A stretch of 64,000 nucleotides of DNA, taken from positions 1,178,001 through 1,242,000 of the forward strand of contig JBHGNT010000014.1 of the NCBI GenBank assembly GCA_043228905.1, given 5' to 3'. This DNA is from Azolla caroliniana (lineage: Eukaryota > Plantae > Polypodiophyta). The notes under the pieces were generated by a model. It made no database searches. It saw only the letters and a program-made list of their open reading frames with translations, and was not told the origin of the DNA. This document shows, piece after piece, positions 1,379 to 37,064 of this stretch (positions are counted from its first letter, which is position 1; every line of letters starts with the position of its first letter). The translations under genes were made by a program, and so were the position numbers.

Positions 1379-4300
1379 ATGGACAGAGGAATCGCTAGCT
1401 CGCTTACAACGGAGAAGCTTGACAGAACCAACTACGCATCTTGGTCCTACAAGATGCACCAGTACCTGCTCGGACACGGTTACTGGAGCTATGTCAATGG
1501 AGCAAATGACACAGCACCCGATTCGACACACAAAGACTTCCCGATGTGGGAACAATCGGCGAGCAGAGTGCTGTACTATTTCACGTCTTGTGTGGGCGAA
1601 CAACTATTAAGCTACGCTCGGGATGCAAAAACGCCGAAGGGTGCATGGGAAAATCTAAAGAAGATCTTCGCCGCGAGCACCATAGCTAGGAAGCTTCAGC
1701 TCCTACAAGAGTTGAGCAACCTACGACAATGCGATTTGTCGGTGGCTGACTATACCTCGAAGATCAAGGACATATGCGACTCCTTAGCTTCCATCGATGT
1801 GAACATCGAGGAAAGCGAGATGGTCCAGGTCTATCTCGGGGGTTTGGCGTCAAAGTTCAGAGCGTTCCGAACTGCTGTGTGTACACGGGAGAATACGTCG
1901 TCGTTTTTCGACTTACAGTCGATGCTCCTTATAGAGGAGAACCACACGGGTGTGTCGACAAGCACGCATGCCGACATCAAGATGTTGTACACGGAGGGAG
2001 AGAGGCCCATGGTCGTGGCGGACGAGGCGAGTCGATATGCAATGGAGGCGGCCAACGGGATCAAGGAAGAAGGCACCGAACTGATGCCGACTGCAATTCT
2101 GGACCCTCCGGAAACAGGGGGAGTCGAGGCGACGAGAACCGGCAAGGGAAATCCGCCGTGGAATGCTGGTATTGTGGCAAGAGAGGCCACAGGCAGAGCG
2201 AGTGCTGGAAAAAGCACGCCGATTCGGAGAGAACCGGGTCCGGAACAGGTTTGTGAAGCCTACCAACTTGGGAAGCAACACCGACTTCCCTTCCCCAACG
2301 AGCGTAACCGGAGCCGGAACAAGCTCGACTTGATACACTCTGATGTGTGGGGGCCAACACAAAACGTTAGTCTTGGCAGGAGCCGATATTTCGTCTCCTT
2401 CATCGACGACTACACGCGGCACACGTGGATCTACCTCATTGAGAGGAAGAGCGAAGTCTTCGACTGTTTCCAGGACCTCAAAGGGTTCATGGAAACGGAA
2501 ATAGGAAGGAAGATCAAGTGCCTGCGGTCGGATGGCGGAAAAGAATACTTTTCCGGTCAATTCAACGGTTATCTACAACAGATGGGAATTCGGCGCGAAT
2601 TCAGTTGTAGATACACGCCGGAGCAAAACGGCGTGGCCGAGAGGAAAGATCGGTCGGTTGTGGAAGCGGCGCGGGCAATGCTGGAAGAAAAGTGCTTGCC
2701 CAAGTTCTATTGGGCCGAGGCGGTACGAACCGCGGTATACTTCCAGAACCGGATCGGAGACAAAGTGTCGGCGCATGAGCTATATTTCGGAATGAAGCCG
2801 AACTTGCGACACTTACGAGTTTTCGGTAGCATTGCGTATGTGCATGTGCTGAAGGAGAAACGAAGGAAGCTAGACGCAAAGGCCGAGAAATGTATCCTGG
2901 TCGGTTACTCGGACGACCAGAAGGGTTATAAGTGTTATAACCCGCGCATCAAACAAGCACGCGTGAGCCGCAATGTTGTGTTTGACGAGTCTGCGTCCTA
3001 GTACTTGCCTCTAACTCCGGACCTTACTTCCAATCCGAGTTCTGATGATGAGGTCAGTGAAGCCGAGATGCCTCCGGATGAGCCTGAAATCGGTACCCGC
3101 GAAGAGAGTTCAATTTCGTTTCGGTTAAGCGGACCGAATGGACGACTAAGTCGGTTTGACCAGTCCGATGAAGAGCCGGCGAGTAGTGGAGACTCGGCCG
3201 TGCATTCCCCGCGCAGGAAGCCGAGGAGACGACTTACGCGCAAAGAAAAAGGGAAGAAGAAGGTGTCGGATTACGGCACGGATAGGAAAGAGTCGGATCG
3301 ACACGAGTCCGACTCCGAGGGAAGTGACGACAGGTCTTCCAGACCGAAGTCCGCGTTGGCCAAGAAAGCCTCAACATCGGCTAATGAGCAATTACGCCGA
3401 TCAACCCGCCAAAAGAACCCTGTTGTGCAATTCGGTTATAATGAGTACATGGCGCACCATTACGCGTACATGATGCGAGTGGCGGAAGTGCGTGAGCTAG
3501 AGAGCTATGCAAAAGCGGCGAAGGACGCGAATTGGCGCGCTACAATGGAGGAAGAGATGAGCGCATTAGCGGAAAATGAAACCTGGGACCTGGTTGACAC
3601 ACTGAAGGGTGTGAAGCCGATCAGATGTAGGTGGGTGTACAAGGTCAAGTACAACACCGACGGCTCAGTCAACCGATACAAGGCCCAGTTAGTGGCAAAA
3701 GGCTACGCGCAGAAACACGGCATCGACTACGATGAGATGTTTGCGCCGGTCGCGAAGATGACGATCGTCCGTGTTTTGCTCGCGGTAGCTGCGGCAAAGG
3801 GGTGGCACTTACATCAGATGGATGTAAAGAATGCGTTCCTGCAAGGTGAGCTTGAGGAACAGGTGTACATGGTACAACGCCCTAGATTTCACTCCGGAAC
3901 GAACACGTCGGCAGTGTGCCAATTGAAGAAGTCCCTTTACGGACTGAAGCAAGCCCCGCGTGCCTGGAACGCGAAGATCATGCAGCAACTGCGTCAGATG
4001 GGCTTTGCAACGTCAAAATCGGACTCTTCCCTGTTCATCTGGAAAGGTCAACTTGGTTCGGTCAGCATTTTACTATATGTTGATGACTTGGTCATCACCG
4101 GCACCGACCTAGGTGAAATCGACCGCGTGAAGCTCCAGCTTGCGGCATCATTCGACATGAAGGATCTGGGGGACCTTCATTACTTCCTTGGGCTCGAAGT
4201 GATCCATACCCCCGAAGGCATACTGATCAGCCAACGTCATTACGCGTTGAATATGCTCTTCAAATTCGGGATGGCAGACTGTAAGTCCGTCTCGACTCCT

Positions 4301-5554
4301 CTAGATAGAACCATCAAACTTCGCCCCAATTCCGGAAAGGTATGCGACCCGACGAGGTTCCGACAAATTGTTGGAAGCCTTATCTACTTAACAATCACCC
4401 AACCTGATCTCAGTTATCCGGTCGGGGTGATCAGTCAATTCATGGCGCGACCTACCAAGGAGCACCTTCAGTGTGCGCAACGCATACTGCAGTACGTAAG
4501 CGGCACTAAGGACCGGGGACTGCTATATCGGACCGGTACAACCTCGCAGTTAGTTGGCTACACCAATACTGATTGGGTTGGCAACGCCGCCGATCGTCGA
4601 TCTACGTCCGGATACGTGTTCTCTCGTGGGAGTGTTGCGATAGCGTGGAGCAGTAAGTAGCAGCCGACAGTTGCACTGTCGAGCACCGAAGCGGAGTATA
4701 GAGGAGCGGCTGTCGCGACATGCGAAGCCATATGGTTGAAGCGGATACTTAAGGATTTGTAGGTGGAGGTGTCGAATCCAACGACTATCTACTGCGACAA
4801 CCTCAACAGCATCCAGCTCGCCAAGAACCCCGTTTTCCACGCCCGGACTAAGCACATTGAGGTGCACTACCATTTCGTCCGTGAGCGTGTTCTCTTCGGT
4901 GAAGTCGAATTTCAGTATGTTCCGACGGATCGGCAGACCGCCGACATCTTCACCAAGCCTCTTGGTCTGGACAAGTTGCGGCAATTCTCGGGTGCGCTTG
5001 GGTTGTGTCACCTCGACGTGCCGAACTTGAGGGGGAGACATGTCTTGAATGACCATGGAAGGGGGAGAGAAGACCGCGATGCCGAGCCAGATGACGAATT
5101 CGATCTCGGATCGGCTGAAGGAGCCGAGGGCAGACCCTCGGAAGATTCCGGAAGCAGACATAAGGGGAGTAGCCGAAAGGAAGAGCCGAAGTCAACCAAG
5201 CATGGGGGAGATGACGCCGTCAAGGGTGAGAAGACCGAAGACGAGTTGGAGACAGCCAACTCAGACGAGAGCGAAAACCGATCGGAGGTAGCCAAGTCGG
5301 TTCGAATGTTTGATTTGAATACACTGAATCAACCGAGGGCCAAGTGGAAAAGAAGGCAACAGGAGAAACGCCAACACCGCGACAACGAAGGAGCTGTGAA
5401 GGGCCGTGGGAGCAGACAAGCCGACCAGAAGGGTCGAAGCGCGCGGAGTCGAACAAGTCGAGGAGTGCGAGCGACGCGTGGGGCCAGGAGGAACCGGAGT
5501 GGTGATCCGGAAGATCCCGAAGAGCCTCAAGTTGAGCTTGAGGGGGAGTGTTGA
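1379..5554 (+). pseudogene. copia 1 gag-pol, disrupted
   Basis: Gag N-terminus (KLDRTNYASW) and zinc knuckle CWYCGKRGHRQSEC, the latter in another frame (frameshift near 2008). Integrase (HSDVWGP, RSDGGKEY, PEQNGVAER), RT (LLYVDDL), RNase H (YCDN, TKHIEV, ADIFTK). Premature stops at 2999, 4658 and 4760. No protease. Confidence 0.93.
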
Positions 5555-13403: not shown

Positions 13404-13463
13404 ATGCACAGAGAAACAGAGAGCAGAAGATAAATGCCTTCGGCATATCCTCTCAGAACAATG

Positions 13464-14354: not shown

Positions 14355-14482
14355 GTGAATGGTCTTCCACAGAGAAGGAAGACCATCTCTGCAGGAATCA
14401 ATGTAAACCAAATTGGATCTGTCTTCCTCCATTTTGTTGGTAATTCCATTTCCTTTTGTCTGCTAAGAACTCATCTTAAGCT

Positions 14483-17056
14483 ATGCCATCACGGACGCTG
14501 CACCATGGCTTTTCTCCATCTCATCAATCTTCTCCCTCTTCTTCTTATACTAAACATTATGTACAGGAATTAATCGTCAATGTTCTCCCTACCATAGCCA
14601 CCGATATTGCCATTCTAGCCACAGCTACTTTTGTTTTCTTCTTCTATAATTGGTACCGAAAGATAGTGCAGCAGCAGCAACAACGGAACAGAAACAATAA
14701 GGCGGGCGCCGATGAGCAAGATATCACCCTCAAGCTTCACAGGTTCAAGTATTGGCACCTCAAGAGAGCTACAAGAGGGTTCTCTGAAAAACAGAAGCTT
14801 GGGAAAGGTGGGTTTGGCGTTGTATATCGAGGTATTCTCAGGGATGGTCGAGAAGTAGCAATCAAGAAATTAGATCTCTTCTCTCTTCAAGGTGAAAGAG
14901 AGTTTGAGAACGAGATTTCCATCTGTAGTAATCTTTCTTCTCCATACCTGGTGAATCTAATTGGTTATTGTGCTCACGGGAAGAGGATCAGGCTTCTTGT
15001 ATATGAATATATGCAGAATCGGAGTTTGCAAGAAGCTTTGTTTGACCAGAGTTATCCTGTTCGATTGGATTGGAACAAGAGGTTCAAGATCATCTTTGAT
15101 GCTGCGAAAGCTCTTGAGTTTCTTCATTTGCAATGCAATCCTCCGATCATACATGGTGATATTAAGCCGAGCAATATCCTTCTCGATAGTAGCTTTTCGG
15201 CACGGATCTCGGACTTTGGTCTTGCTAGATTCAAATTTGAGGAGTACTATGGATCAGATAGTGATGATAGGAATTCTACATTTAGTGGGATTAATCTTAC
15301 AACACCGGCTACTCCTCGAGGATTCAGACATGGAGCTTCGGAACAAAGTGTGTGTGAGACCAATAGGCACTCTGCTATGAGGAATCATGGTCTTTCAGAT
15401 TACAAGCTTTCATTAATGGAGTCCCAATCTGTGAAAAACGAAACTCTTAATACAAAAGGATCTCCCCACGAATTGTCATGCGGACAAGAGGATCTCATGT
15501 ACAAACATACCCCCCAACCTTCTGTTATTAGCCTCTCACCAGATCGATCGAGGCAAACTAAACATCATATTGCTAACAATCTGGAATCTGCATTTCCAGA
15601 GTTGAAGGAAAATAAAATGGTTATGGAATCTTCATATTTGGTGTTGAAGGAAGTTAAAATGGATATGGTATCTACATATCCAGCTTTGAAGGAAGTTAAA
15701 GTAGACATGGAATCTATGTATCCAGTGATGGAGGAAAAAAGGAATATGGGATTCACATATCGGGTATTGAAGAAAGAAAACCTGGTTATGGAAACTTCAT
15801 ATCCTGTATTGAAGGAAGTTAAAATGGATACGGAATCTATCCATCCAGTGTTGAGGGAAGAAAGAATGGATATGGAATTTGCATATCCAATGCTAAGTGG
15901 AGAAAACCTGGCAGTGAAAATAGGTATAGAACCTTCATACCCATCATTGGAGGAAGAAGTGGATATGGGATCTACATATCCAATGTTGAATGAAGAAAAA
16001 CAGGCTGTAGAACTGGAGGTGTCTACAACCAATGCACAGAGCAAGACTCTTGTTAATGGTCTTAATCATAGAGATATCAGGAGCAAAGATGAGGAATTGA
16101 TAGGAAAAAAGTATGTTATGGATTGGCTAGGATCTGATCACTCCTCCAATAAAGCTAAACCCAAAGAGATTGCTCCTGTTGATGTGGGAAATAATGCCAC
16201 TAATGAAAAAATAAGTAATCTCAACAGTCAATCCAGAAGAGAAAAAAAGATGAATATACGGAGAGAGAGTCGGGAATGGTGGAAAGATGAGTATTTTGCT
16301 GAGCTGAGTAGTAAAAGCGCAGTGAAAGATGATGGAAGGCCAAAGGAGACTTCTAAAGACTTCTTTGGATGGGAGTACAATGCAGAAACTAGGAGAAATG
16401 AACGAAGACTCATGAAAGATGGCATAAGAAACATGTCCAAACAGTGGTTCCGGAATGCTAGGAATAGCCAAGAGAGGCAATCGAGAAGGATGCCCTCGAT
16501 ATCGAATGATATGTTGTGGAGTGGAGAGCTTAATCACAAAGGTCAAATTAACAATGAATTGAATAGCAATCAGCAATGGAGTGGTGAGATTCTGGTAAGA
16601 GATGTTAGTAGTACAAGTATGAGAGGGACAATATGTTATGTTGCACCTGAATACGGAGGCAATGGCTTAGGCTCGGAGAAGGGTGATATATACAGTTTTG
16701 GCGTGCTTATACTTGTGATTCTGTCAGGACGACGACCTATCCAAATCTCGGCATCGCCAATGAAAGAATTCGAGAAAGCGAACTTGATCTCGTGGGCTCG
16801 ATCTTTATCGCATTCCAACAAGATACTAGATCTTGTAGATGATAGTCTCGGTGGAGAGTATGATAAGAAACAAGCTCACTTGTGTATAACATTAGCATTG
16901 CTATGTCTTCAACGAGTACCTACCCGCAGACCTGACATATCTGATGTCATTAAGATTCTTTCGGGACAGATTACCACACCTTCATCGCCAGTTGACCTCT
17001 CACCTTCTCCAAATGCAAAAATACGTTCCGAAAGGCCTCCTCTTTCACCAAAGTAG
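14483..17056 (+). CDS. Membrane-anchored receptor-like cytoplasmic Ser/Thr kinase, RLCK-XI type (At2g45590/At4g25390-like), 857 aa, intronless
   Basis: MPSR start, N-terminal hydrophobic helix, LGKGGFGVVY, VAIKK, HGDIKPSN, DFG at ~15212, a long insert with family-type WWKDEYFAELS and WSGEL motifs, then SMRGTICYVAPEY and DIYSFGV. Confidence 0.93.
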   Translation: MPSRTLHHGFSPSHQSSPSSSYTKHYVQELIVNVLPTIATDIAILATATFVFFFYNWYRKIVQQQQQRNRNNKAGADEQDITLKLHRFKYWHLKRATRGFSEKQKLGKGGFGVVYRGILRDGREVAIKKLDLFSLQGEREFENEISICSNLSSPYLVNLIGYCAHGKRIRLLVYEYMQNRSLQEALFDQSYPVRLDWNKRFKIIFDAAKALEFLHLQCNPPIIHGDIKPSNILLDSSFSARISDFGLARFKFEEYYGSDSDDRNSTFSGINLTTPATPRGFRHGASEQSVCETNRHSAMRNHGLSDYKLSLMESQSVKNETLNTKGSPHELSCGQEDLMYKHTPQPSVISLSPDRSRQTKHHIANNLESAFPELKENKMVMESSYLVLKEVKMDMVSTYPALKEVKVDMESMYPVMEEKRNMGFTYRVLKKENLVMETSYPVLKEVKMDTESIHPVLREERMDMEFAYPMLSGENLAVKIGIEPSYPSLEEEVDMGSTYPMLNEEKQAVELEVSTTNAQSKTLVNGLNHRDIRSKDEELIGKKYVMDWLGSDHSSNKAKPKEIAPVDVGNNATNEKISNLNSQSRREKKMNIRRESREWWKDEYFAELSSKSAVKDDGRPKETSKDFFGWEYNAETRRNERRLMKDGIRNMSKQWFRNARNSQERQSRRMPSISNDMLWSGELNHKGQINNELNSNQQWSGEILVRDVSSTSMRGTICYVAPEYGGNGLGSEKGDIYSFGVLILVILSGRRPIQISASPMKEFEKANLISWARSLSHSNKILDLVDDSLGGEYDKKQAHLCITLALLCLQRVPTRRPDISDVIKILSGQITTPSSPVDLSPSPNAKIRSERPPLSPK
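15581..16009 (+). repeat. Ten in-frame ~42-bp (14-aa) coding repeats within the kinase insert
   Basis: Units such as MESSYLVLKEVKMD, MVSTYPALKEVKVD, METSYPVLKEVKMD, MGSTYPMLNEEKQA. Confidence 0.92.
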
Positions 17057-18235
17057 CAGAACTCATTATGATAGATGACACTTGGATTCATTTTGTATAC
17101 TATTGGTCGGTTCATAAACTAGAACACACCTGTTATCAACTGGTAATGATAGATGACATTTTATATTCATTTTGTTTACCACCAGCAGTATGCCTTCACT
17201 TGTTCCTCAAAGCTTAACTCAATGTTTCTAAAATAAAATGATGTGAACATCTTGAGGGGATTTGGTTTTGCAAACCTGTACATGTATATTGTCATGTCAG
17301 ACTCTTTAATTAATATTAAGATGGGATACACTTGAAACAGATATTTGTACAAATTGTGCAACTGGAAATATCTATTTTGTACTAAGTGTGCAAAGTTTAT
17401 ACCAAGTGTTAAGACTCTCATGAAGACCTTGACCTTCGTGACATTACCTCACAGCTTTCAAAGCTAAGTTTATCACGAGACATACATTAGTAAGACTTAT
17501 ATTACTATCGGGAAACCTCACTGCAAGATGAAAACTCGCAAAATAATAATGACAAATGTACTAAGTGTCAAGTAGACACTGGAGCTCTTCGAAGCACTCA
17601 ACGGTAAAGAATGTAAATTTGAATATGTCCAGACTATGGCTATGACATACGGCTTATGTAAGGATGCCTTGATTTTGATGTTAGAAAACACTATCAGAAG
17701 GATGTTACATTGAATTTATGTGCTTAAATGTGTTACAGCATAAAAACATGCCGAACTGATGCCTAATAATCTGAGAATGAATAGCAGGTTGAAGAAGACA
17801 TGTTATCACTCATGTCAGCCAAAAGTATACCTTCAGAGTGTTTTCTTTCGTAATTCCAAGGCACCTCACCTTCCCCTGTTCATAGCATCCACCTCTTCTT
17901 TGGTTCTTGTCATTGTGGCGATCCTATTGGAAGACAATGAATTCTGTTCCAAAGACAAATATTAAAGTATTTAAGTATCTTACTTAGTTCCTTGATTCAG
18001 CATCCACTGTCCCACATAACCTCTTCATCAAATGAAATTACAGTGTTTATCAAGCATCAAGAAAAGAATAGTTGCAGACATACGACTACGAGTTGAACTG
18101 AAGTATGAATCTTTGGAGTGCAATGATGGTAATGACACAGCCACATCAAAGGGCTTATTCCAATCTGTTGAAAATGAGATTTTCTATGGCTCGCATGAAT
18201 CAATGGTATATATTGAGGACTTGCACAAGATGAGA

Positions 18236-21272: not shown

Positions 21273-24200
21273 GCAACTCGGCAAGATGTCGGCAACCTGC
21301 CGATCCGTTAGAACATACACCAGTTTGACTTCACCGGAAAGGACTCGTTCTCGGATAAAGTGGTAATTAATGCACCTCAATGTGCTTTGTCCAGGCATGG
21401 ACGATGGGGTTCTTTGCCAATTGGATGTTGATGAGGTTGTTGCAGTAGATTGTTGTCGGGTCTAACACCTCCACTCGCAGATCCTTCAGTAACCATTTGA
21501 GCCAAACGGCCTCACATGTTGCGATAGCCGCTCCTCTATACTCAGCCTCAGTGCTTGACAGTGCAACTGTCGACTGCTTGTTGCTGCACTAGGCGACCGC
21601 GAAGCTTCCAATTGAAAACGCATAATCAGATGTAGACCTGCGGTCGCCGACATTTCCGGCCCAATCAGCATCTGTATAGCTGACTAATTGTCCAACTATA
21701 CTAGCCCGATACAACAACACTCGATCTTTAGTGCTGTTGACATATCGCATGATCTGATGCACACATTTCAAATGTTCGATAGATCAGTCCAACCGGATAA
21801 CTCATGTCCGATTGAGTGATCGTCAGATAGATAAGGCCCGACTATCTGGGGAACTATGTCGCGTCACAAGTTGCTCCCGACCCTTGGCGAAGCTTAACAT
21901 TTTGGTCTAGAGGAGTCGATACAGATTTGCATTCCGTCATACCGAATTCGGTGATGACAAGCTCATCCACATAGAGCAAAATGCTCACTAGCCCATTCTG
22001 ACCCTACCAAATGGAGAGTGAAGAGTCTGATTTCTACGTTCCATGCTCGTGGGGCTTGCTTGAGTCCATATAGGGACTTCTTTAGTCGGCAAACAACCAA
22101 CGTGTTCATTCCAGACTGAAATTTGGGGGGTTGAACCATGTATACTTGTTCCACAAGGTCGCCTTGCAAGAATGCGTTCTTTACATCCATTTGATGTAGA
22201 TGCTACTCGGTGGGGCTTGTAGCACTTCTACCCCTTCTACTCATCGGAGTAGCCAACCAAGATACATTTCTCCGCCTTGGCATCTAGTTTCTTTTGCTTC
22301 TAATCCGGTATATGCACATATGCAATGTTACCGAATACTCAAAGGTGTGCCAAGTTCTACTTCCGCTCGAAATACAGTTCGTGCGGCGACACCTTTGTCC
22401 CTGAGGTAGATATCCAATTCTGTATGTAGACTAACAATCGGCAACGGTTCGGTTTGAACCGAACCAAACCACAAAACCGCGGTTTAATGGCTTAACGATT
22501 TCAATGGTTCGGGTTCGGTTCAGGTTTAGGTTTTTCTAAACGGTTCGGTTCGGGTTTGGTTTGGTTTCAACAGTAAAAACCCACGGTTTTAATGGTTTAA
22601 TGGCTTAACGGTTTCAATGGTTCGGGTTCGGTTCAGGTTTAGGTTTTTCTAAACGGTTCGGTTCGGGTTTGTTTTGGTTTCAACAGTAAAAACCCATGGT
22701 TTTAACGGTTTAACGGTTTCTATTTTTTAATTTTTTTAATTTTTTAAAAAACATTTTTAAAAATTATAAAAAAATTCTAAAAAAATTTTAGAATTTGTTT
22801 TTTAACAATCTTTTCATTTTTACACCTTATTCATTCTCACATTTTAGGAACATCTTAAAAATTCTAAAAATTCTATATAATGAAATATTATAAATTTAAA
22901 AAATTAAAAATTAGACCTATGTTGAAAACCGAACCGCGGTTTTTACGGTTTAATGGTTTAACGGTTTGAAAAAAGGTTTAACGGTTCGGTTTCGCAGTTT
23001 GGTTCAGGTTTCAAAAATTTTAAACGGTTCAGTTTGGACCCTCTCAAACCGAACCGAACCGTTGCCGATTGTTAATGTAGACGGCTATCCAAACTACATC
23101 GGCCCCAATAAATCAGGGGCATGCTCTTCTTCTCCATCATCACCCTCACTGCTTCTTCCAACATCCAGTTCTGCTCTGGCGTGTATCTACAAGAGAACTC
23201 TCGACGAATTCCCTTGGTCTGCAAATAACTTGTGAACTAGCTGGAAAATATTCTTTTCTGCCATTCGATATCATACACTTGATCTTTCTTTCGGTTTCTC
23301 GTTCGACATGACTCTTTAGGTCTCAGAAACATGAGAAGACATCGCTCCTCTTCTCGATCAAGTAGATCCAAGTGTGTCGGCTGAAATCGTCGATGAAATA
23401 GATGAAATATCGACACCCACCAATGTTCACGTTTTGTGTCGGTACCCACACATATGAATGGATAAGATCGCGCCAATTCCAACTCTGATTCTTCTCATTG
23501 GGGAATGGAAGCCTATGATGCTTCCCAAACTAACAAGCTTCACAAGTTTGGCCTTTCCGGCCACTAAACTTCGGTAGTTCGGAAACCTGTTCCGATTGAA
23601 TCTCCTAAAGCTTTCGGAAGTTGATGTGGCCGATCCGCTTATGCCATAGATTGATGTTAGACTCAACCTTTTTTCCACTCACGAACATAGCAGTGCCAAC
23701 ATCATTGGTTTCGAGTATGAACATTCTTCCATCCCTTCGCCCTTGTGCGATGATCTGGCCTTCCTCCTCGATGAAGCATACGTGGTGAGTGAACCAAACC
23801 TGCATTCCTTGATCCACAATCTAAACGACTAACACCAAGTTCTCGGCGTCTATACATGTAGGACGTTCCTCATTATTCCCTTCTGGCCGACATAGGTCAG
23901 AAGGACATCCCCGATATGCTCGATGGGATGTGGGGTGTCATCTCCGGTTTCGACCACCCTTGATTTCTTCGGCTTCTCGAGAAAGGAGAACCACTCTTTG
24001 TGGTTCGTCATGTGGTTTGAAGCTCCAGAGTAAACATACCAAACTTCCTCCGACTTCGAGTCGGAAGCAGCCATTCGGTTGACCTTATTCTTCATTACAA
24101 GGGTTGGTCCTCACTTGGCTCCCTCTTAGCTTCTAGCAAAGTGCGATAAGTGATGTCTATTTGCGTCCCTTCGGCTCGATCAGGCTTTGTCTGAATCTGC

Positions 24201-24797
24201 CCTTTTCTTCCAGCACTCGCTTTCTTTGTGTCCCGTCGGCCACAGTACCAACTATCTCTCGGCACCGCCTTGACTCCCCCTGCTTCCGGAGGATCCAATA
24301 CTGCTGTCGGCACCATCTTTGTGCCTCCAATTATGCTCTTGTCGGCCGCCTGCATTGCGCTCCAACTCGCCTTGTTCGTCAAGACCACGGTTCCGATCTT
24401 CCTCCATGTACAACATCTTGTTGTCGGTGTGCGTACTTGTCAACGCACCCACGTGGTTCTCCTCTACAAGGAGCATCGACTGTAAGTCGAAAAATGAAGG
24501 CGTATTCTCCCTTGTACATATCGTCGTCCTGAATGCTCCAAAATTCGACGCCAAGCACCCGAGGCAGACCTTGCACCATTTCATCCTCCTTGATGGTCAC
24601 GTTGATGGATGCAAGAGAGTCACAAATCTCCTTGATTCGGGTTGTATAATTGGCCACTGACATGTCTTTCTGTCGGACGTTTCTCAACTCTTGTTGGAGG
24701 TGCAGCTTCGAGGCCGTAGTGCTTGCGACAAAGACCTTCTTCAGGTTTCTCCAAGCTTCCTTTGGCATCGTGGCATCCCGGATATGGCTAAGTAGAT
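21273..24797 (-). mobile_element. Degraded Ty1/copia internal region (copia A), same family as copia 1
   Basis: Minus-strand fragments of gag (AWRNLKKVF), protease (WYVYSGASNHMT), GAG-pre-integrase (WHKRIGHINF), integrase, RT ([25 protein letters not shown]) and RNase H (YTDADWAG); many deletions and stops. Confidence 0.9.
22432..23074. mobile_element. Non-autonomous hAT element / MITE (643 bp)
   Basis: Perfect 23-bp TIR TAACAATCGGCAACGGTTCGGTT; 8-bp TSD ATGTAGAC at 22424-22431 and 23075-23082; subterminal CGGTT/AACCG arrays; AT-rich core; internal ~120-bp duplication. Confidence 0.95.
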
Positions 24798-25171
24798 TGT
24801 CAAAGTTAATATGCGAAAGCTTTGCCATACTGGTTTATCCGGTCAACAATAGAAAAACAGAGAAAAGTTTAATGGAAGCTTAGAATACACAAAAGAGACA
24901 CCGGAAAGCATGAACTCAATTTAAAATAATAACACTTTGTACATAGAATGTGCTAAGAGAGCACTTTTATACAAGTCCTTATACGGACTAACAAAAGTAC
25001 TAACAAGTACTTCAATGCTCATACAAGCGACTGGTTGTCATGAAGACAACATTTTGGTTATCAAGAATCGAACCCACGACTTCTTGGTCTATGTGTTGAA
25101 CCCTTAACCATTGTAATAACATATATGTTGTGTAATTATAATAATTATGTTTCTAGTTATTACAAGATATT

Positions 25172-25295
25172 AGAATATTCTAGAACATTCTAGATTATTC
25201 TAGAACATCCTTTAATATTTCATGATTATATTTCTTATCATAAAATCTAAAATATTCTAGAACATTCTAGATTACTCCATAAGGACCTATAAATA
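25172..25295 (+). promoter_or_regulatory. Heat-shock-element array and TATA box in the chromovirus U3
   Basis: aGAAtaTTCtaGAAcaTTCtaGAttaTTCtaGAAc (25172-25206); second TTCtaGAAcaTTC at ~25255; TATAAATA at 25288; also present in the 3' LTR. Confidence 0.75.
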
Positions 25296-25504
25296 ACTGT
25301 CTATACATTCGTTTCAACTCATTCGGTTCAACACCAGTCTTTAGCCCTTAGCCTACTCATTGTAATCTTGTTTCATCATAATATAAGCTCATTTCTATTT
25401 CAAGTCTTATCTCTCTCTCACTCTCTCTCTCTCTCTCATGCACACACACACACACCCTCTCTCTTTCACTCTCGCTCTATCTTCTACCCACGAGTCTCGA
25501 CAGT

Positions 25505-25515
25505 TTGAACCGAAT
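25505..25515 (+). promoter_or_regulatory. Self-priming PBS
   Basis: TTGAACCGAAT is the exact reverse complement of ATTCGGTTCAA at 25321-25331, which starts 33 nt after the TATA start; no TGG tRNA-type PBS is present. Confidence 0.85.
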
Positions 25516-25586
25516 ATTTTTGTTTCCTTTTCCAATAACCCTAGCAAGCTTTCTTCTTTTCCCTTCTTTCTTTTTCTCCCTCAGTT

Positions 25587-26714
25587 ATGGAATCCGTCAG
25601 CAAGCAAGAGTATATGCGTGTCCTTTCTGAGCTCGACATGCTCACAACTAAGTTTGTGGCATTAGAGCAAGAAAATCATAGGCTACTCGGGGATTTACAA
25701 CAAGTGAGTACCGAGAAAGCTCATCAATATGAGGAGTTATCACAACGGGTTCATCAACTCGAGGCTACTATATTAACATTACGAGAACAAGCGGCGGGGG
25801 TTCAAAACTCCCCAAGGGAACCAAAGATTAGCCTCCCTACCAAGTTTGATGGTACCCGATCTTTGTTTCGAGGTTTCTTGAATCAAGTCCGTTTGGTGAT
25901 TCAATTACATCCTAATCGGTACCCAACTGATGCTGCTCGTGTGGGATTAATAGGAACCTTGCTAAGCGGTACCGCATTAGCATGGTTTGCACCACTTCTA
26001 GAGAAGAAATCACCATTGTTGGAGGATTTCGAGGCATTCATTAAAGAGTTTCAAGCTAGTTTTGGAGACACCGATAGCACTAGAACGGCAATAAACAAGA
26101 TTCGAAGACTCTGACAAGGAGATCGTCCCGCTTCAGCCTACGCAACAGATTTCCGTCTCTTGGCATGTAACATCCCTTGGGATGAGGCAGCCTTAATGGA
26201 TCAATTTCGTTAGGGTTTGCGTAATGATGTCAAAGATCTTCTTCTTACTTTCCACGAAGATCCAAAGTCTCTTACAGAGGCCATTAGTCGAGTTGTGCGA
26301 TGTGATAATCGCCTATTTGAGCGACGTTCTGAACGTCAACAAATGCTATGCCGTCAACCGGAACAGACGTATGCTTCAATAGTCGCAACACCGCCACAAG
26401 TTCCCAGACCCGTTACGAGGGATGGTCCCACTCCGATGGAAATAGAGTCAACACAACGTCGAGGGCCTTTATCAGATGCTGAGAAACAACGACGTCGGGC
26501 GCATCACCTCTGCCTCTATTGTGGTGGTCAAGGACATATTGTTGTGAATTGTCCACATAAACCCAAACGACAAGTTTACCAAGTAAGTGCACATGACAAC
26601 CCTACCATGAGTTCTACTATCACTTCTAATAACTTAACTACTAAGCCTAATAACCCATGCCATGAGAATAGATTTGATGTCTTGAGCCAATTAGAGGATG
26701 TGTTAAACGAATAA
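25587..26714 (+). pseudogene. Chromovirus gag (coiled coil, PKISLPTKFDG capsid, CLYCGGQGHIVVNC knuckle)
   Basis: ORFs 25587-26114 and 26217-26714 lie in one frame, separated by premature stops. Confidence 0.92.
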
Positions 26715-29700
26715 GTCCGGCCAAAATAGGAGCCATTTGGTTGGACCATCCTAGATATGTAGAGTTTGTACCTAGTTGTGGTTCCATTTCATCAAATCAA
26801 GTTAGTAGAGTTTTTTTTGCACAAGTCGAACTTAGCACATCTACAGGTCATCGAGTCCTAGCCTCTGCCCTCCTAGATTCTTGAGCCAATTCTTGTTTCA
26901 TGGATCGCGAGTTTGCATTGACCCAAAACATCAACTTGAACAAGCTCCCGAACCCAGCAGCTGTAGGAGTCATTGATGGTCGCCCTATAGCATCAGGTAA
27001 TATAGTCGAAGAGTCTGAATCAATTCGTGTAGTCCTAGGTAATTTGGCTAGTATCATCTCATTCAACATCATTAGTAGTCCAGAGCACTCTCTAGTTCTT
27101 GGTATTCCTTGGTTTAAGTTACATAACCCAACTATTGATTGGAGAAAAAGAACTATTGAAGAGGTCATAGTACATTCCGAGTCTCTTGAAACTGCAACAA
27201 AGGATCTAGGATCCCACATGATTTCAACAATCTCTATACATCAGTTACGAGAGGATGGAAGGAAGGAAGACATGATGGTGTTTGCGGTTTTAGCAACTCC
27301 CTCATCTAGCTCACAAGAATTGGGGGTCCAATTACCAAAGAAGTACATAGAATTCTCCGATGTGTTCGATAAGGTGAAGGCTAATAGATTACCAGAGCAT
27401 CGACCCTATCATTGCCCAATTGATTTGCAGCCAGGAAAAGAGCCTCCATGGGGGCCAATTTATAACCTTTCGCCCACGGAGTTAGAGGTTCTTCGAGAAT
27501 ATATAGATGAGAACCTGGCAAATGGTTTTATCCAACATTCAAGATCTCCTGTTGGTGCACCCATCTTTTTCATTAAGAAGAAAGATGGTACACTTCGTAT
27601 GGCCGTGGATTATCGGGGCTTGAATAAAGTGACTATTAGAAACCGATATGCTCTACCATTGATCTCAAGCCTTCTAGAACGCCTCAGTGGAGCAAAGTAT
27701 TTCACGAAGTTAGATCTTCGAGGTGTCTACAACCTTGTTCGAATTCGTCCGGGGGATGAATGGAAGACCGCATTCCGCACTCGCTATGGTCATTTTGAAT
27801 ATACAGTGATGCCATTTGGTCTCACGAATGCACCGGCAGTTTTCCAACATATGGCGAATGACATTTTTCGAGACTTCCTCGATATCTTCATCATAGTTTA
27901 CTTGGATGATATCTTGATCTACTCAAAAACTCAAGAGGAGCATGAGATACATGTTCGCCAAGTTTTGCAGCGGTTACGAGAGTATGGTCTCTATGCAAAA
28001 TTCGAGAAGTGTAGTTTCGACTAGTGTCAAGTGGAATTTTTGGGGTACATAGTCTCTTCAAATGGCATCTCTATGGATCCATCAAAGGTCCAAACAATTT
28101 TGGATTGGCAAACACCACAGTCTGTGCGAGATGTACAATGTTTTTTGGGGTTCGCAAACTTTTATCGCAAGTTCATCAAAGATTATTCAAAGATTGTATT
28201 GCCCCTCACTCAACTAACACGCAAGAATCAACCATTTGTATGGGGTATAGATGCGAACTCTGCATTTGAGGGTTTAAAGCAAGCGTTTACATTTGCACCA
28301 ATTTTAATGCATGTCGATCCAATGAGGCGCTTTATACTTGAAGCTGATGCATCTGATTTCACACTCGGAAGGATACTATCCCAGATTTGTGAAGATGGCG
28401 AACTGCACCCTATGGCTTTTCACTCACGGAAATTTGAAGCCGCAGAAATCAACTATGAGATTCACGACAAAGAGCTTCTTGCCATTGTGGATTCTTTTCA
28501 ACAATGGCGTCATTTTTTGGAGGGTTCTTCTCAACAGATTATTGTCTTCAATGATCACAAAAATCTAACATACTTCCAAAGTGCTCGAGTCTTGAATCAT
28601 CGACAAGCTCGTTGGGCGCAGTTCTTAACTCGTTTTGATTTTGTAATTCTATATCGCCCTAGGATGCAACAAGGAAAAGCAAATGCTTTATCTCGACGTT
28701 CATATATGGAACTTCAACCCGGAGAGGCCGCATTTGAAAGTCAAAAGCAAATCCTCTTAGGTCCTGATCGTCTACAAGTAATGGCAATACATACTATCAA
28801 CACACCAGGAGATTCGAGGCTTCTTGATTCCATTCGGGAGCAGATTGCGACAGATGCATTCACCCGAGAGGTTTTGAGTCATATTATCCCAGATCGTGCT
28901 TCCAGCTCTCAATCTAAAAATCCTCATCTAGACTACACCCAATTCAATTGGCATGATGGTTTGCTTTTTTGACAAACTCTCTTGTATGTGCCTGACGGTC
29001 CTTCTCGACTCAAAGTCGTGCAACAATGTCATGACACGCCAATGGCTGGACATTTCGGCATCCACAAGACTTTTGAGTTGATTTCTCACCGATATTGGTG
29101 GCCACGGCTTTGCCATTTTGTTACGGATTATGTTCGTAGTTGTGATACAGGTTGCCGATCAAAAAAGCCTCGACATCATCCATATGGCCTATTATAGCCA
29201 ATGCCTATTCTGGAGAGCCCATGGAAATCTATTTCCTTGGACTTTATTACGGATCTTCCACCTTCCAAGGGATTTGATTCTATTCTCACGGTAGTCGATC
29301 GTTTTACGAAGATGGCACATTTCCTTCCATACACGAAGACCATTACTAGTCAAGAGACAGCCGATTTACTCATGCGGGAGGTGTTTCGCCATCATGGTCT
29401 TCCAGATTATATTATCAGTGATCAGGGTCCCCAATTCATCTCGAAATTTTGGCGGCACATGTTCAAACTCTTACATACTTCTTGTAAACTCTCTTCCAGC
29501 TACCATCCAGAGACTAATGGGCAGAGTGAGCGCACCAACCAAACAGTCAAACAATATCTACGTTGTTTTGTCAACTATCAACAAGATGATTGGGTGGATT
29601 TATTACATTTGGCGGAATTTGCTTACAACAACTCCGAACATTCTTCTACTGGCTATTCCCCATTTTTTGCTAACATTGGGTACCATCCTCGTTGGACGAT

Positions 29701-30340
29701 GCTTGAACATCCCGAACTCCCAAAAAACCCGATTGCTAAAGATCGGCTCACTCGACTCCAAGAAATTCAAGATATACTTTTGCATCATTTATGTGATGCC
29801 CAAAACACTCAAAAGAAGATTGTTGATCGTCATCGGCATGATTCATCGACTACGTTTCAAGTAGGAGATCGTGTATGGCTCTTACAAGGTAGCATTAAAA
29901 CCACTCGACCTTGCTACAAATTGGATTATCAACGTTTCGGCCCATATGTGATCTCTAGTAAGATCAATGATATGACATTTCATCTTGATCTCCCTCCTCA
30001 TATGCGTCTTCACCCGGTCTTCCATGTTTCACTTTTGGAGCCCTACACAACAAGCTCTATTCCGGGTTGTCTTACACCTCCCCCACCTCCAATTGAAGTT
30101 TCTAATGGCTCTGTGAATATGAGGTTGCTGTTATTCTCGACTCCAAGATCATCCGCAAAAAACTATATTATTTGGTTGATTGGTTAGGTTATACACCTAA
30201 TGATCGAACATGGGAGCCTGTCGAGCATCTTGCTAATGCCTCTGACATGGTTGTTGCATTTCACAACAAATATCCCCATAAACCAAGTCCGAACTCTTGT
30301 CTTCCGACTCGTGGAACTCGTCATCGAAAGGGGGGGATAA
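26708..30340 (+). pseudogene. Chromovirus pol in the -1 frame (protease, RT, RNase H, integrase, chromodomain)
   Basis: LLDS*A protease (TGA at 26882), [30 protein letters not shown] plus SLDFITDLP, GPY, and a frameshifted chromodomain EYEVAVILDSK...YLVDWLGY...TWEP at ~30115-30290. Confidence 0.93.
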
Positions 30341-32013
30341 TGTCATGAAGACAACATTTTGGTTATCAAGAACCGAACCCACGACTTCTTGATCTATGTG
30401 TTGAACCCTTAACCATTATAATAACATATATGTTGTGTAATTATAATAATTATGTTTCTAGTTATTACAAGATATTAGAATATTCTAGAACATTCTAGAT
30501 TATTCTAGAACATCCTTTAATATTTCATGATTATATTTCTTATCATAAAATCTAAAATATTCTAGAACATTCTAGATTACTCCATAAGGACCTATAAATA
30601 ACTGTCTATACATTCGGTTCAACACCAGTCTTTAGCCCTTAGACTACTCATTGTAATCTTGTTTCATCATAATATAATCTCATTTCTATTTCAAGTCTTA
30701 TCTCTCTCACTCTCTCTCTCTCTCTCACGCACACACACACCCTCTCTTTCGCTCTCGCTCTCGCTCTCACTCTATCTTCTACCCACGAGTCTCGACACTG
30801 GCACTGACTCCCAAAAATATGCCTATGTACTAGGCTAGATCTGTAGGCCTCTAACGGCCTACCGGTTACAATCCGATTTGGCTCTTGGTTCCAGATACCA
30901 TCCGGACACCGATACGGCTCTTCGTTTTGAACTCCGATACGGCTCTAGCTTATTCAACCAATCTAGATCCGGTTGAGCTTGTCCGCTCAACACTCCCCCT
31001 CAAGCTCAACTTGAGGTCGGATCGCAGTGTCTGTGTCTGTGGTAGTTGGCCCTCTCCTCCGGCTCCCCCTGGCGTCCTCCCGTCTTGCTCGCACTCCTCG
31101 ACCCGTCCGCTTCCGCTTCCCACGACCTGTCCATTCCCGCGCACCTCGACCTTCTCGATCGGCTTGTCTGCTTATAAGGCCCATCTCAGCTCTTTTGCTA
31201 TTACAACTCCGACGCATCTCGACCCATCAGTTTCTACATGTCAGTGTCGACATCCGCTGCCTCCTTGTCCATTTGGCCTTCAGTTGATCCGGTTCATCCA
31301 AGTCAACCACCTCTTCCGAATCAGGTGCATCTGATTCATTCCAGCTCTTGTCCGGATTGGCTGTCTCCAATCCGTCTTTGGTTCCCAAACCTTTCACGAC
31401 ATCGGCTCACGTCTGTGTCTTGGTCTTCTTGCCCTTCTTAGCTTTACCTCCCCCTTGTTTGGTTGGCTTTGGCTCGGGCTCTCCGTTCTGGTGGCTCCCC
31501 TTGCGTCCAGTCTTGGCTTCTTCAGTCGTCCCGTGCACTCCGACTTCTTCAGTCGGGCCGAAGTCGAAATCGGTTTTCAACTCGGCTTTTCGGTCGTCCT
31601 CATCATTCTTCCTTTCATTCCTCCCCCTCAAGTTCGGCATATCGAGGTGTTGCACACCCAATGCATCGGAAAATTGCCGCAACTGGTCTAAGCTAAGGGG
31701 TTTGGTGAAGATATCGGCCACTTGCCGATCCATCAGAACATACAATAGTTCCACTTTACCGGAGAGAACGCGCTCTCGGACAAAACAATAGTTCACCTCG
31801 ATGTGCTTAGTCTAGGTGTGAAAGACAGAGTTCTTCGTCAACTAGATGTTGTTGAGGTTGTCGCAATAGATCGTTGTTGGATGAGACACCTCCACTCATA
31901 AATCCTTTAGGAGCATCTTGGGCCATATGGCTTGGCATGTCGCGATAGTCGCTCCTCGGTACTCGACAGTGCTAATGTCGGTTGCTTCTTACTGCTCCAG
32001 GCAACTGCGACGC

Positions 32014-34108: not shown

Positions 34109-37064
34109 TTAACATTGAGTAGAGGGGTTTTCCATGCACAAGGAGGTATCACCAGATACTAACATACTTTGCTTTTCACATCGAGCATAAGGGCCTTCAC
34201 ATAAACTTGTATTATCACCAGACCCCCACATATTTGCATCATTAACATGATTATCCTGTGCTTTGTCATGATTGTTCGCATCATTGATCACAGACAAGTT
34301 AATCATATGCTGATCACCTCGATCCTCACAAGTGAGGTTACCATTTGTGACAAATCTGGCATGGCCATTGCCGTAAACACTTCCAAGATCGGCATCATCC
34401 TTCACATATAGACTACAAGGATCAACCATGTTCACACCGTCAAGGCAGACGACATGATTATCATCTGATTGGTGGCCAAATTTAGAATTGATCACTTGGT
34501 GATCATTATTATTGCCAATCTCTTGGTGAGCCATGTCCAGATTGACTAGAGAGTTGTCTCTTGAGATGCTTCTATGGTCACCACCATCATTGGCCTTGCC
34601 TCCTTCAAGAGCATCAAGAACATCATTCACGGTAAGTGCATTGCAAGATGTGGAAAGAACATGTGAACCTAGAGTGCTATCTTGGCCATCATTACTATCA
34701 GGAATCGAAGAAGGTGATGAATCCATGACTAGCAATGATTGCCATTGGAGCTTATCATGTTGTCCGTCATGGCTATCCCCACCTTCTAGATCCTTCTCAT
34801 GCTGTGAAGTGCATTGATCGTGGTCAATTATACATGATTGCTCTACATTAGCCCATCCTTCTTCATTCTCATTATCATCCTCCTCGTTCTCTAAAAGTAG
34901 CACATTGTTGAGAGACATATGATCATATTGCTGATGCATAGGATGGCAATGCACATCAGGATACGCTTTCCCAAAATAGAGCTCAGCTGGGGGATGATCA
35001 ACCAAAAGAGCTGATTGCCATTGGTTCTGATTGGATCGTTCATGCTGCCCAAAGTTTCGATTCTTCTCGTCTTCTATTCCTTCACTTCCATGTTGCAATA
35101 AGTTTTCTTTATCAATGATGCACGATTGCTCTACGTTGGTCCAGGTAGCCGTCCCTTGATTTGCATGCATTGGATCCTTCATGAGGAGCATACCATTATA
35201 AGTGTTATCACAAATGGTGGAACATGTTGCCTCCAAAGAAGCTCCAGTGCAAACCATGGACTCAGAATTCCTCTCCATTTCTACCTTCATTAGCAAACAA
35301 ACACAATCATTCCATGTAATCTCCACTTAGTTCAAATTTCTCTCTATTTAGCTTGTCATTTCTCGCCAAGATTACACAATTACTTATATTCATGATATTA
35401 ATAATACGTCCTTTGCTAACAAATAAAAATTATCATCAAAAGCCTCTGTTTCAATACTTTCCATGTACAATCATATATATCTCATGATTCAGCAGACCAA
35501 TATCATCTCTTTTCTACCTTCTTTAGAAAATAAAAACTCCCAATATGACATTCTACCTTTGTTAGAAAGTAAGAACTCCAATACAATTCCCAATAAGACA
35601 ATCATACTCCCCTTTTAACTTCATTTGCATTCTCAAATATTATTTCAATTTACCTCCCTTGCAATATTGTCTATTTAGTAATTTCTGTAACCTCTGATTC
35701 TATCTTCATTAGCAAATAAGACTTCTATTTAGCTCATTGGCTACATTGTGTAAAAATGACACTAAACTCTCCATTTCTATATTCATGAATAAAACAACAT
35801 TGTACTTTTACCTACATGCTCAACAATCCATTCATATAATCAAATCGGTTCATTTTGGCCAATGACCTTATCATTCTCAAACAGATCTTCTCCATTGCTT
35901 CCCTCATTCACAAATAACTTTGCAGCCTATCTGGCTCAGCATCAAATAATATTATCAAATGGATTCAGTATATCCAATAACATTGTCAAATGTGCTCTCC
36001 CTTTCTGATCTCATCATCATTTAAGTTTGCCTCAAATTGATTCTATGCAGTTCTACCCTCTTCAGCAAAGTAAGCAAATAGCTCTGTAAGCTTTCTTTAC
36101 TTAATTAGCAAAATTAACAACCCCTTTTATTGATTGGATTAAATCTCTCCATTAAATTTCGTCTGTTTCCACTAATCAACTCTGGACTTTCTATTTAGCT
36201 CATTGACAGGAGAGTTAAAATTGAACTTCTCCAATTCTTTCTTCATTAACAATTAGCTTCATATAATCTCCATTTAGTTTTTACTTACTTATCAGCAAAG
36301 ATTTTATCATGTCACATCCATATCTAATCTCAGTTTCTGTGACATACACAATCTCTTAAGAATTTACAGCAATAAAGTTTCATTCATAAATTAATGGATA
36401 GTCAAAAACAAACAAGAAACAAATGAGTCTTCGGACTTACACTGCTTATCAGTTTGAAATTTTGATTTTGTGGATCGGGTGATAGCCTTTGTTCCATGAC
36501 AGGGGGTAATAATGCATGTGGTGGCTGTTGTTCATGAAACATCATTTGATATGGCATCAATGGCATTTCCAGGCTTGGATACTGCAAATATCTAATCCTA
36601 TCGATGATAAGCCCATAGAAGGTCTCTAATCTCTCTGCATGCTGCTTCAATTCAATCACGCTCATACCATCCAAAGGCTGGAGCCACCAGTTGCCCATAT
36701 AATGCCTATGATTAATATAATCAGCATGAAGTTGTTGCTCCAATGCATGGTGCCTCTCCTTCTCAAGCTCTAGATCTTGAAGAAGACTGTTATATTCATT
36801 CTCTAGGCGCCGAATAAGCTCAATTTTCTCCTTATCCACAGACACTGGCCTTTTCATGATCTTATCTATGACATAATCTATGCATGGGTGTCCAAAAGAG
36901 AAAGCTTTTCCTGCTTGTGAGAACACTATTATGCCCACCTCTGACCCACATAGAATTGAGAGCTCGCTTGCCTTCTTTATGAGACCCACTCTTCTCTTCG
37001 AGAAGCATACTTGCCTCGCACTTGGATTCTCGATCTTCTTGATCTCAATCTTTGCGCGGCCCAT
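34109..37064 (-). CDS. Type I M-alpha (AGL62-like) MADS-box transcription factor; proposed exons 37064-36441 and 35284-34109, ~599 aa
   Basis: MGRAKIEIKKIE...RQVCFSKRRVGLIKKASELSILCG...AFSFGHP followed by a coiled coil and WW motif. Phase-0 donor AGT|GTAAGT at 36441 and phase-0 acceptor GCTAATGAAG|GTA at 35284 join it in frame to the 405-aa ORF. The MADS exon is certain; the second exon is inferred. Confidence 0.8.

What the first reader, a model, noticed from the sequence alone, without database searches (positions are those of the whole stretch)
15212..16651. Kinase activation segment expanded to ~477 aa with a ten-unit Tyr/SUMO-motif array
Seen: DFG at aa ~244 and APE at aa ~721, versus the usual 20-35 aa spacing. 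The insert holds ten ~14-aa repeats (15581-16009), consensus ME(S/T)xYPVLKExxxD. Eight units keep a YxxL/M motif (YLVL, YPAL, YPVM, YRVL, YPVL, YPML, YPSL, YPML), and several contain hydrophobic-K-x-D/E (VKMD, VKVD, LKKE). All indels between units are multiples of 3. Known: RLCK-XI kinases have a split catalytic domain; YxxPhi is an adaptor/endocytic motif and PsiKxD/E is the SUMO consensus. Inference: a lineage-specific multivalent docking or modification array inside the activation loop of a catalytically intact-looking kinase.
Basis: partly seen in the sequence, partly recalled or inferred. Interest (0 to 1): 0.72.

Follow-up and report, generated by a model that had tools for sequence, protein, structure and literature searches.

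The report
Fern kinase with variable repeat insert
This fern gene belongs to a plant kinase family already known for a very long insert in its activation loop; here part of that insert is a transcribed run of ten 14-residue repeats whose number differs among relatives, and it likely acts as a flexible acidic spacer rather than as a row of docking signals.

Summary
In detail: an 857-aa ORF (14483-17056) has DFG at 244, APE at 721 and ten 13-18-aa units at 15581-16006. The long insert is the published kinase insert domain (KID) of RLCK XI kinases (199-527 aa, PMC9992409); the ten nearest fern relatives have 380-445 aa. Only the array is new. It is not spliced out: one spliced RNA contig spans it without a gap. 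It is shared with a distant relative (P0140, about 12 degenerate units) and absent from 111 other family members. Unit number varies among close copies (about 8, 10, 11). The Tyr/SUMO reading is weak. Unit divergence is near neutral (dN/dS 0.8-1.1), and 8 of 10 YxxPhi is within neutral decay (p about 0.1). Only one strict SUMO site exists, K406 is lost in three relatives, Y499 in two, and P0140 keeps 2 YxxPhi. Between copies the array is only as constrained as the flanking insert (0.26-0.40). AlphaFold predicts it disordered. It carries the whole net charge (-11) of the acidic first part of the insert, a pattern found in 100 of 100 relatives. Verdict: a lineage-specific repeat variant of a known family, likely an acidic spacer.

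The parts
14483..17056 (+). Single-exon ORF of an RLCK XI kinase, 857 aa (P0001)
   Evidence: RNA contig of run X2 covers 14377-17277 without a gap
14570..14650 (+). Predicted single transmembrane helix (about aa 30-56), followed by basic residues
   Evidence: Kyte-Doolittle 19-residue peak 1.81 at aa 30-34; helix 27-70 in the AlphaFold model
14783..15220 (+). Kinase subdomains I-VII: GKGGFG, K128, E144, HGD (non-RD) D226, K228, N231, DFG 244-246
   Evidence: Pfam Pkinase aa 101-250, E 1e-37; residues; pLDDT 88-98
15221..16642 (+). Kinase insert domain (KID), 474 aa between DFG and APE, predicted disordered
   Evidence: family feature in PMC9992409
15581..16006 (+). Tandem array of ten units of about 14 aa (42 nt), net charge -11; the 18-aa unit 8 is likely a fusion left after loss of ten codons
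16112..16126 (+). Family KID motif YVMDW (aa 544-548), border between the acidic first part and the basic second part of the insert
16271..16306 (+). Family KID motif REWWKDEYFAEL (aa 597-608)
   Evidence: invariant in alignment A1 of 12 fern sequences; D/EWW motifs in PMC9992409
16622..16963 (+). P+1 loop (SMRGT, APE) and kinase subdomains VIII-XI: E723, D735, R816
   Evidence: 1 replacement against 15 silent changes in the second gene copy of runs X4/X6
13434..13463 (+). Ten ATG-started codons at the end of an upstream exon; donor GT at 13464; acceptors used at 13704 and 14567
   Evidence: loose ends of RNA contigs in runs X2 and X3; junction letters

Best explanation
The gene encodes a membrane-anchored RLCK XI kinase whose activation segment is the family's long insert, and the ten-unit array is a transcribed, lineage-specific tandem duplication that likely serves as a disordered, negatively charged spacer in the variable first part of that insert. 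Shown: the intact catalytic residues, the family motifs, retention in RNA, different unit numbers among close copies, and the array's net charge of -11. Inferred: one 42-nt unit was amplified long ago and still gains and loses whole units by misaligned recombination or slippage. The two kinase halves fold together around the looped-out insert. Selection keeps the frame and the general make-up (acidic, Ser/Thr-containing, no stable fold) more than any single Tyr or Lys. The array replaces the unrelated acidic stretch that other ferns have at this place, and so keeps the family's acidic-then-basic pattern. Any regulation there is more likely by Ser/Thr phosphorylation, as reported for the same region of two Arabidopsis members.
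For: Family inserts are 199-527 aa and predicted disordered (PMC9992409); 111 homologues found here have 273-556 aa, 4 of them longer than 474. AlphaFold: kinase halves at pLDDT about 88-98, insert mostly under 50 with no structure in the array; array alone pLDDT 45, pTM 0.10, from 3 sequences only. The part before the YVxxW motif is net acidic and the part after it net basic in 100 of 100 homologues where the motif was found (of 111; median -11). In the window the array has -11 and the rest of the first part 0. The first part varies twice as much in length as the second (CV 0.22 against 0.11). Other inserts carry their own unrelated internal duplications: 12 of 113 rows against 0 of 113 shuffles (two rows were not family members and were not among the 12). 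Unit number: 11 in P0122; one unit in run X10 and three regular units in copy 2 of run X9 where P0122 has four. dN/dS among units 0.78-1.08 (37 replacement, 13 silent); YxxPhi 8 of 10 p 0.10-0.12; Tyr p 0.27-0.31; Lys p 0.89-0.94. Identity to P0122: array 91%, flanks 93% and 86%. Phosphoserines reported for AT1G80870 and AT5G51770 (PMC3380553) lie in the first part of the insert.
Against: Between the window and run X10 the array shows purifying selection: 8 replacement and 8 silent changes, dN/dS 0.26-0.40, p 0.009-0.09 depending on the transition bias assumed. That is like the flank (0.37-0.54, only 9 changes) but not neutral. The array has lasted across a deep split: P0140 matches it at 43 of 98 residues, about as well as the motif-bearing flank (40 of 87), with units recognisable one by one. 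All 8 Tyr are kept in P0122 and 5 of 7 in P0140 (chance 0.46 and 0.14). The among-unit test assumes a star-shaped history and has little power. Low AlphaFold confidence from shallow alignments does not prove disorder. No experiment exists for this protein.
Confidence: 0.62

Rival explanations
1. The array is a multivalent Tyr module: repeated YxxPhi sites bind the mu subunits of adaptor complexes (or act as phosphotyrosine or aromatic 'sticker' sites) and set the trafficking or clustering of this membrane kinase, with unit number tuning the strength.
For: 8 YxxPhi in the insert against at most 2 in 111 homologues. All kept in P0122; Tyr at 5 of 7 matching units of P0140. The protein has a predicted transmembrane helix. 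A YXXPhi motif is needed for endocytosis of bean SYMRK (PMC10020325, abstract). No match to four NLS patterns (recalled from memory) in the window protein, while 104 of 111 homologues match.
Against: The count follows from copying one unit; neutral decay p 0.10-0.12. Y499D in X10 and X9 copy 2. P0140 has only 2 YxxPhi in about 12 units. In SRK, removing one YxxPhi or AP2M left signalling intact, and the other Tyr was needed for kinase activity (PMC6027874, abstract and passages).
Confidence: 0.14
2. The array is a SUMO or other Lys-modification array.
For: One psi-K-x-E and three psi-K-x-D in the array; P0140 has two psi-K-x-E in its array.
Against: Whole-insert count 7 against up to 6 (mean 2.2) in homologues. 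Unit Lys kept in 5 of 10, no better than neutral. K406 is Asn in P0122 and Glu in X10 and X9 copy 2. K431 is Glu in all four runs.
Confidence: 0.04
3. The array is functionless, tolerated filler: any in-frame sequence of any charge would do.
For: dN/dS near 1 among units; unit number 8-12 among relatives; unrelated duplications in other inserts.
Against: dN/dS 0.26-0.40 against X10; unit-by-unit likeness to P0140; the acidic charge of the region is kept family-wide.
Confidence: 0.18
4. The array is an intron or an assembly artefact.
For: None found. Contigs drop rare splice forms, so a minor skipped form cannot be excluded.
Against: One 3015-nt contig of run X2 spans 14377-17277 with 0 gaps and itself ends at a splice junction; X2 also shows the spliced upstream exon. 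Overlapping contigs of X3 chain across the array, and no joint inside it is listed for any of the 4 runs. An independent protein record, P0122, holds the array.
Confidence: 0.02

Closest known systems
RLCK XI subfamily with kinase insert domain (Arabidopsis AT1G80870, AT2G45590, AT4G25390, AT5G51770; PMC9992409)
   Same: One transmembrane helix, non-RD HGD loop, all catalytic residues, insert between DFG and APE inside the published 199-527 aa range, D/EW and D/EWW motifs, SMRGT before APE.
   Different: A ten-unit Tyr-containing 14-aa array, found in none of 111 homologues and with 0 hits for two unit motifs in the paper's two supplements. Longest first part of the insert: 297 aa against at most 260. 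No match to recalled classical NLS patterns.
Fern RLCK XI of Pteridium aquilinum (P0002) and Adiantum (P0005, P0006), and Salvinia cucullata RLCKXI-2
   Same: Same clade in a kinase-domain tree (SH-aLRT 98, quick tree; Salvinia not in the tree); 46-51% overall identity for the three.
   Different: No array. Inserts are 411-413 aa; in Salvinia the stretch from DFG to the GKEY motif, seen whole in the supplement row, has no such unit. The window protein is on a long branch (0.25).
Kinase insert domains of animal receptor tyrosine kinases
   Same: A disordered insert that splits the kinase domain; phosphorylation there regulates signalling (as cited in PMC9992409).
   Different: Those inserts lie at another place in the kinase fold and dock SH2 proteins through phosphotyrosine (recalled). 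No such partner or phosphotyrosine was shown here.

Membership tests
RLCK XI | RLK/Pelle-type kinase domain whose best relatives are RLCK XI | tested here: met
   Named hits include MpRLK-Pelle_RLCK-XI and At1g80870/At2g45590/At4g25390-like proteins; nested among them in the tree
RLCK XI | Insert of about 200-530 aa between subdomains VII and VIII | tested here: met
   474 aa; published range 199-527
RLCK XI | D/EW and D/EWW motifs in the insert | tested here: met
   YVMDW 544-548 and REWWKDEYFAEL 597-608; the DWWW-type motif upstream of YVMDW, present in some ferns, is missing
RLCK XI | Single N-terminal transmembrane helix | tested here: met
   Predicted only: hydropathy peak 1.81, helix 27-70
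RLCK XI | Non-RD catalytic loop and complete catalytic residues | tested here: met
   HGD 224-226, K128, E144, N231, D244, E723, D735, R816; activity itself not tested
RLCK XI | Insert predicted disordered | tested here: met
   pLDDT mostly under 50 over aa 262-713
RLCK XI | Classical nuclear localisation signals in the insert (reported for Arabidopsis and rice members, common but not universal) | tested here: inconclusive
   0 matches to four ELM-type patterns recalled from memory, against 104 of 111 homologues; the second part is still net basic (+7); localisation not testable here
AP-2 YxxPhi docking array | Tyr and +3 hydrophobic residue conserved beyond background | tested here: inconclusive
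   p 0.10-0.12 among units; all kept in P0122, Y499 lost in two copies, 2 of about 12 units in P0140
AP-2 YxxPhi docking array | Binding to a mu-adaptin and an effect on endocytosis | not testable with these tools
   Needs binding and trafficking assays
SUMO acceptor array | Repeated, conserved psi-K-x-E sites | tested here: not met
   One strict site; unit Lys neutral (p about 0.9); K406 lost in three relatives

The most novel reading that the evidence does not exclude
In one fern lineage the RLCK XI insert has been rewired: classical nuclear-import signals were lost and an old, copy-number-variable array of Tyr-containing units was gained inside the activation segment. It acts as a tunable multivalent module (adaptor docking, phosphotyrosine or aromatic stickers) that redirects a membrane-and-nucleus kinase toward membrane trafficking or clustering.
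Probability: 0.13. Interest if true: 0.65.

Novelty: new variant of a known kind. Interest (0 to 1): 0.27.

Why it matters
The headline oddity, a kinase split by a huge activation-loop insert, is already published for the whole family, whose function and even kinase activity are still unknown (PMC9992409). The array adds a natural series of alleles with about 8, 10 and 11 units. It also points to a family-wide acidic-then-basic charge pattern of the insert, which I did not see described in the parts of that paper I read. Both give a handle for testing whether length and charge, or specific motifs, matter in this insert. If the Tyr units proved to be docking sites, it would be an unusual case of a valency-tuned module inside a plant kinase's activation segment.

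Tried and rejected
No whole genome is held for this window, so paralogues could not be listed. Pfam found nothing meaningful in the insert (two weak hits below cut-off). A search of 1.84 billion representatives with the array gave 17 hits. Two are true relatives (P0122, P0140). Six more that I read (P0138, P0139, P0141, P0142, P0149, P0150) are unrelated Tyr-containing repeats with no kinase or KID motif; the other nine were not read. A profile search with the three array-bearing sequences found no further member among 7986 candidates of 155-697 aa. The Atlas feature search with P0122 gave no usable hit. Earlier findings of this scan: none by sequence or by words. An idea that the unit came from the upstream ten-codon exon was rejected: rank 4261 of 127942 positions, score -11.9. 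A folded repeat (solenoid) was not predicted, but the alignment had 3 sequences. Run X13 laid nothing and X14 only 15834-16160, which proves nothing. The gap of X10 over 15805-15904 is not evidence on its own; the 8-unit reading rests on the contig that joins across it. The careful tree did not finish; the quick tree is cited. Paper searches for a fern or repeat-bearing KID found only PMC9992409 as relevant (listings only for the rest); subscription journals are not covered, and supplement cells were cut at about 400 residues on display.

Full report
Observation. The window holds an uninterrupted 857-aa ORF at 14483-17056. DFG is at aa 244 and APE at aa 721, with 474 residues between them. Ten units lie at 15581-16006, of 14, 14, 14, 13, 14, 14, 14, 18, 13 and 14 aa and 53-83% alike in DNA; Tandem Repeats Finder sees period 42, score 259.

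Family. The best relatives are RLCK XI kinases. A kinase-domain tree of 50 rows puts the protein with Pteridium, Adiantum and unnamed relatives (SH-aLRT 98, quick tree), on a long branch, so the source is most likely a leptosporangiate fern; I did not determine the genus. PMC9992409 (read: abstract, introduction, methods, results, discussion, parts 1-5 of 7; supplement tables by search) describes exactly this insert between subdomains VII and VIII in 152 land-plant members. There it is 199-527 aa, predicted disordered, with D/EW(W) motifs and functional nuclear signals, in non-RD, membrane-anchored kinases whose activity and role are unknown. Of the 120 hits listed, 111 have such an insert (273-556 aa, median 347, 4 longer than the window's; 9 multi-domain or unrelated rows dropped). 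The ten nearest have 380-445 aa. All catalytic residues are present. AlphaFold folds both kinase halves with confidence and leaves aa 262-713 mostly under pLDDT 50. The split kinase is therefore known; only the array needs explaining.

Is it in the mRNA? Run X2 shows the upstream exon joined to 13704, so it is spliced RNA. One X2 contig of 3015 nt covers 14377-17277 with no gap and ends in a second splice junction. Overlapping contigs of X3 also chain across the array, and no joint inside it is listed in the four runs.

Who else has it? None of 111 homologues has more than 2 YxxPhi in the insert. A unit profile finds no array in them (best score 8.9, against two units at 20 in P0140), and two unit motifs have 0 hits in the paper's supplements. 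Two records do carry it. P0122 (84% identical; a fragment whose last 50 residues leave the family pattern) has eleven regular units, which shows that the window's 18-aa unit 8 is likely a fusion left after loss of ten codons. P0140 is a 312-aa insert fragment with the family's YVMEW and REWW motifs and about twelve degenerate units, split by eye. Its flank is about as far from the window (40 of 87) as Pteridium is (33 of 79), yet its array aligns at 43 of 98 (score 149 against 30-45 for six ferns without it). The array is therefore old and confined to one lineage.

Copy number moves. In run X10 a contig joins across the middle of the array. Its first letters fit 15764-15801 (30-base overlap with the neighbouring contig, and the five mismatches reported by the tool are reproduced when three letters are assumed), which leaves one 42-nt unit where the window has 138 nt: most simply 8 units. 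A collapsed loop in the assembly is a less likely reading. The second copy in run X9 has 126 nt there, three regular units. Unit numbers of about 8, 10 and 11 among copies that are roughly 90-94% alike point to gain and loss of whole units by misalignment (inferred).

Are the motifs selected? Among the window's units, match to the consensus is 82, 83 and 85% at codon positions 1, 2 and 3; dN/dS is 0.78-1.08 (37 replacement, 13 silent). Simulated neutral decay gives 8 or more YxxPhi in 10-12%, 8 or more Tyr in 27-31% and 5 or more Lys in 89-94% of 3000 runs (star history assumed, low power). Against X10 the array has 8 replacement and 8 silent changes (26 of 27 differences were displayed), dN/dS 0.26-0.40, p 0.009-0.09. 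The 5' flank gives 0.37-0.54, and the kinase C-lobe, in another pair of copies, 0.02-0.03. So there is some constraint, about ten times weaker than on the kinase and no stronger than on the rest of the insert. Y499 is Asp in X10 and X9 copy 2; K406 is Glu in both and Asn in P0122. Against my reading, P0122 keeps all eight Tyr (chance 0.46) and P0140 keeps Tyr in 5 of 7 matching units (chance 0.14), but only 2 as YxxPhi.

What it most likely does. Splitting each insert at the YVxxW motif, the first part is net acidic and the second net basic in 100 of 100 homologues where the motif was found (of 111; median -11), and the first part is twice as variable in length. In the window the array carries -11 and the rest of the first part 0. 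Twelve other inserts hold their own unrelated duplications, against none in shuffles, and AT2G45590 shows repeated SPE-containing stretches in the same region (seen by eye). Phosphoserines reported for AT1G80870 and AT5G51770 (PMC3380553, passages) fall in this first part. A ubiquitination survey lists only K89 for AT1G80870, outside the insert (PMC8133621, passages). I conclude that the array likely serves as an acidic, disordered spacer that this lineage rebuilt by tandem duplication (confidence 0.62). The Tyr-docking idea stays possible (0.14). YXXPhi matters for bean SYMRK endocytosis (PMC10020325, abstract) but not for SRK signalling (PMC6027874, abstract and passages). The window protein lacks matches to recalled NLS patterns that 104 of 111 homologues have, which hints at changed localisation.

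Novelty. I found no paper on this array (searches; open-access library only) and no earlier finding of this scan. It is a new variant of a known kind: a real, expressed, variable repeat inside a published insert, with weak evidence for motif-level function. Interest 0.27.

Noticed in passing
window 13434-13463, 13704, 14567: An upstream exon ending in ten ATG-started codons is spliced in two ways. Joined to 13704 (run X2) it makes a 14-codon upstream ORF in a leader of about 800 nt with 16 ATGs. Joined to 14567 (a second gene copy in run X3) it is in frame with codon 29 and would give another N-terminus just before the transmembrane helix.
   Followed up: partly
window 17276-17830: Contigs of runs X2, X4 and X6 jump from 17277 to 17833; the skipped stretch can be read CT..AC, a 555-nt intron on the minus strand. 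A convergent transcript likely overlaps the kinase 3' UTR; its gene was not identified.
   Followed up: partly
window 14483-17056 in runs X3, X4, X6, X9: These runs hold a second copy of the gene, about 92-95% alike where laid, beside the window-like copy, as a hybrid or polyploid would.
   Followed up: partly
RLCK XI homologues among P0002-P0121: The insert is net acidic before and net basic after the YVxxW motif in 100 of 100 homologues where the motif was found.
   Followed up: partly
P0049 (Adiantum), P0015 (Cryptomeria), P0121 (Neltuma): Unrelated near-exact internal duplications inside the insert: 35 aa, 15 aa, and a long one that repeats the DFG region.
   Followed up: partly
window 36402-37064 (-): Intronless 220-aa ORF with an SRF-type MADS-box domain (Pfam E 3e-25), likely a type I MADS gene.
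   Followed up: no
window 25171-30777: Retrotransposon-like gag, reverse transcriptase and integrase ORFs in pieces (gypsy-like by eye) between matching repeats at 25171 and 30476 that look like LTRs.
   Followed up: no
window 1379-4660 (+) and about 21300-24900 (-): Two copia-like retrotransposon copies by eye, the second decayed into short frames.
   Followed up: no
window 34109-35290 (-): 393-aa acidic, His/Asn-rich ORF with an internal repeated segment and no Pfam match; may be one exon of a larger gene.
   Followed up: no
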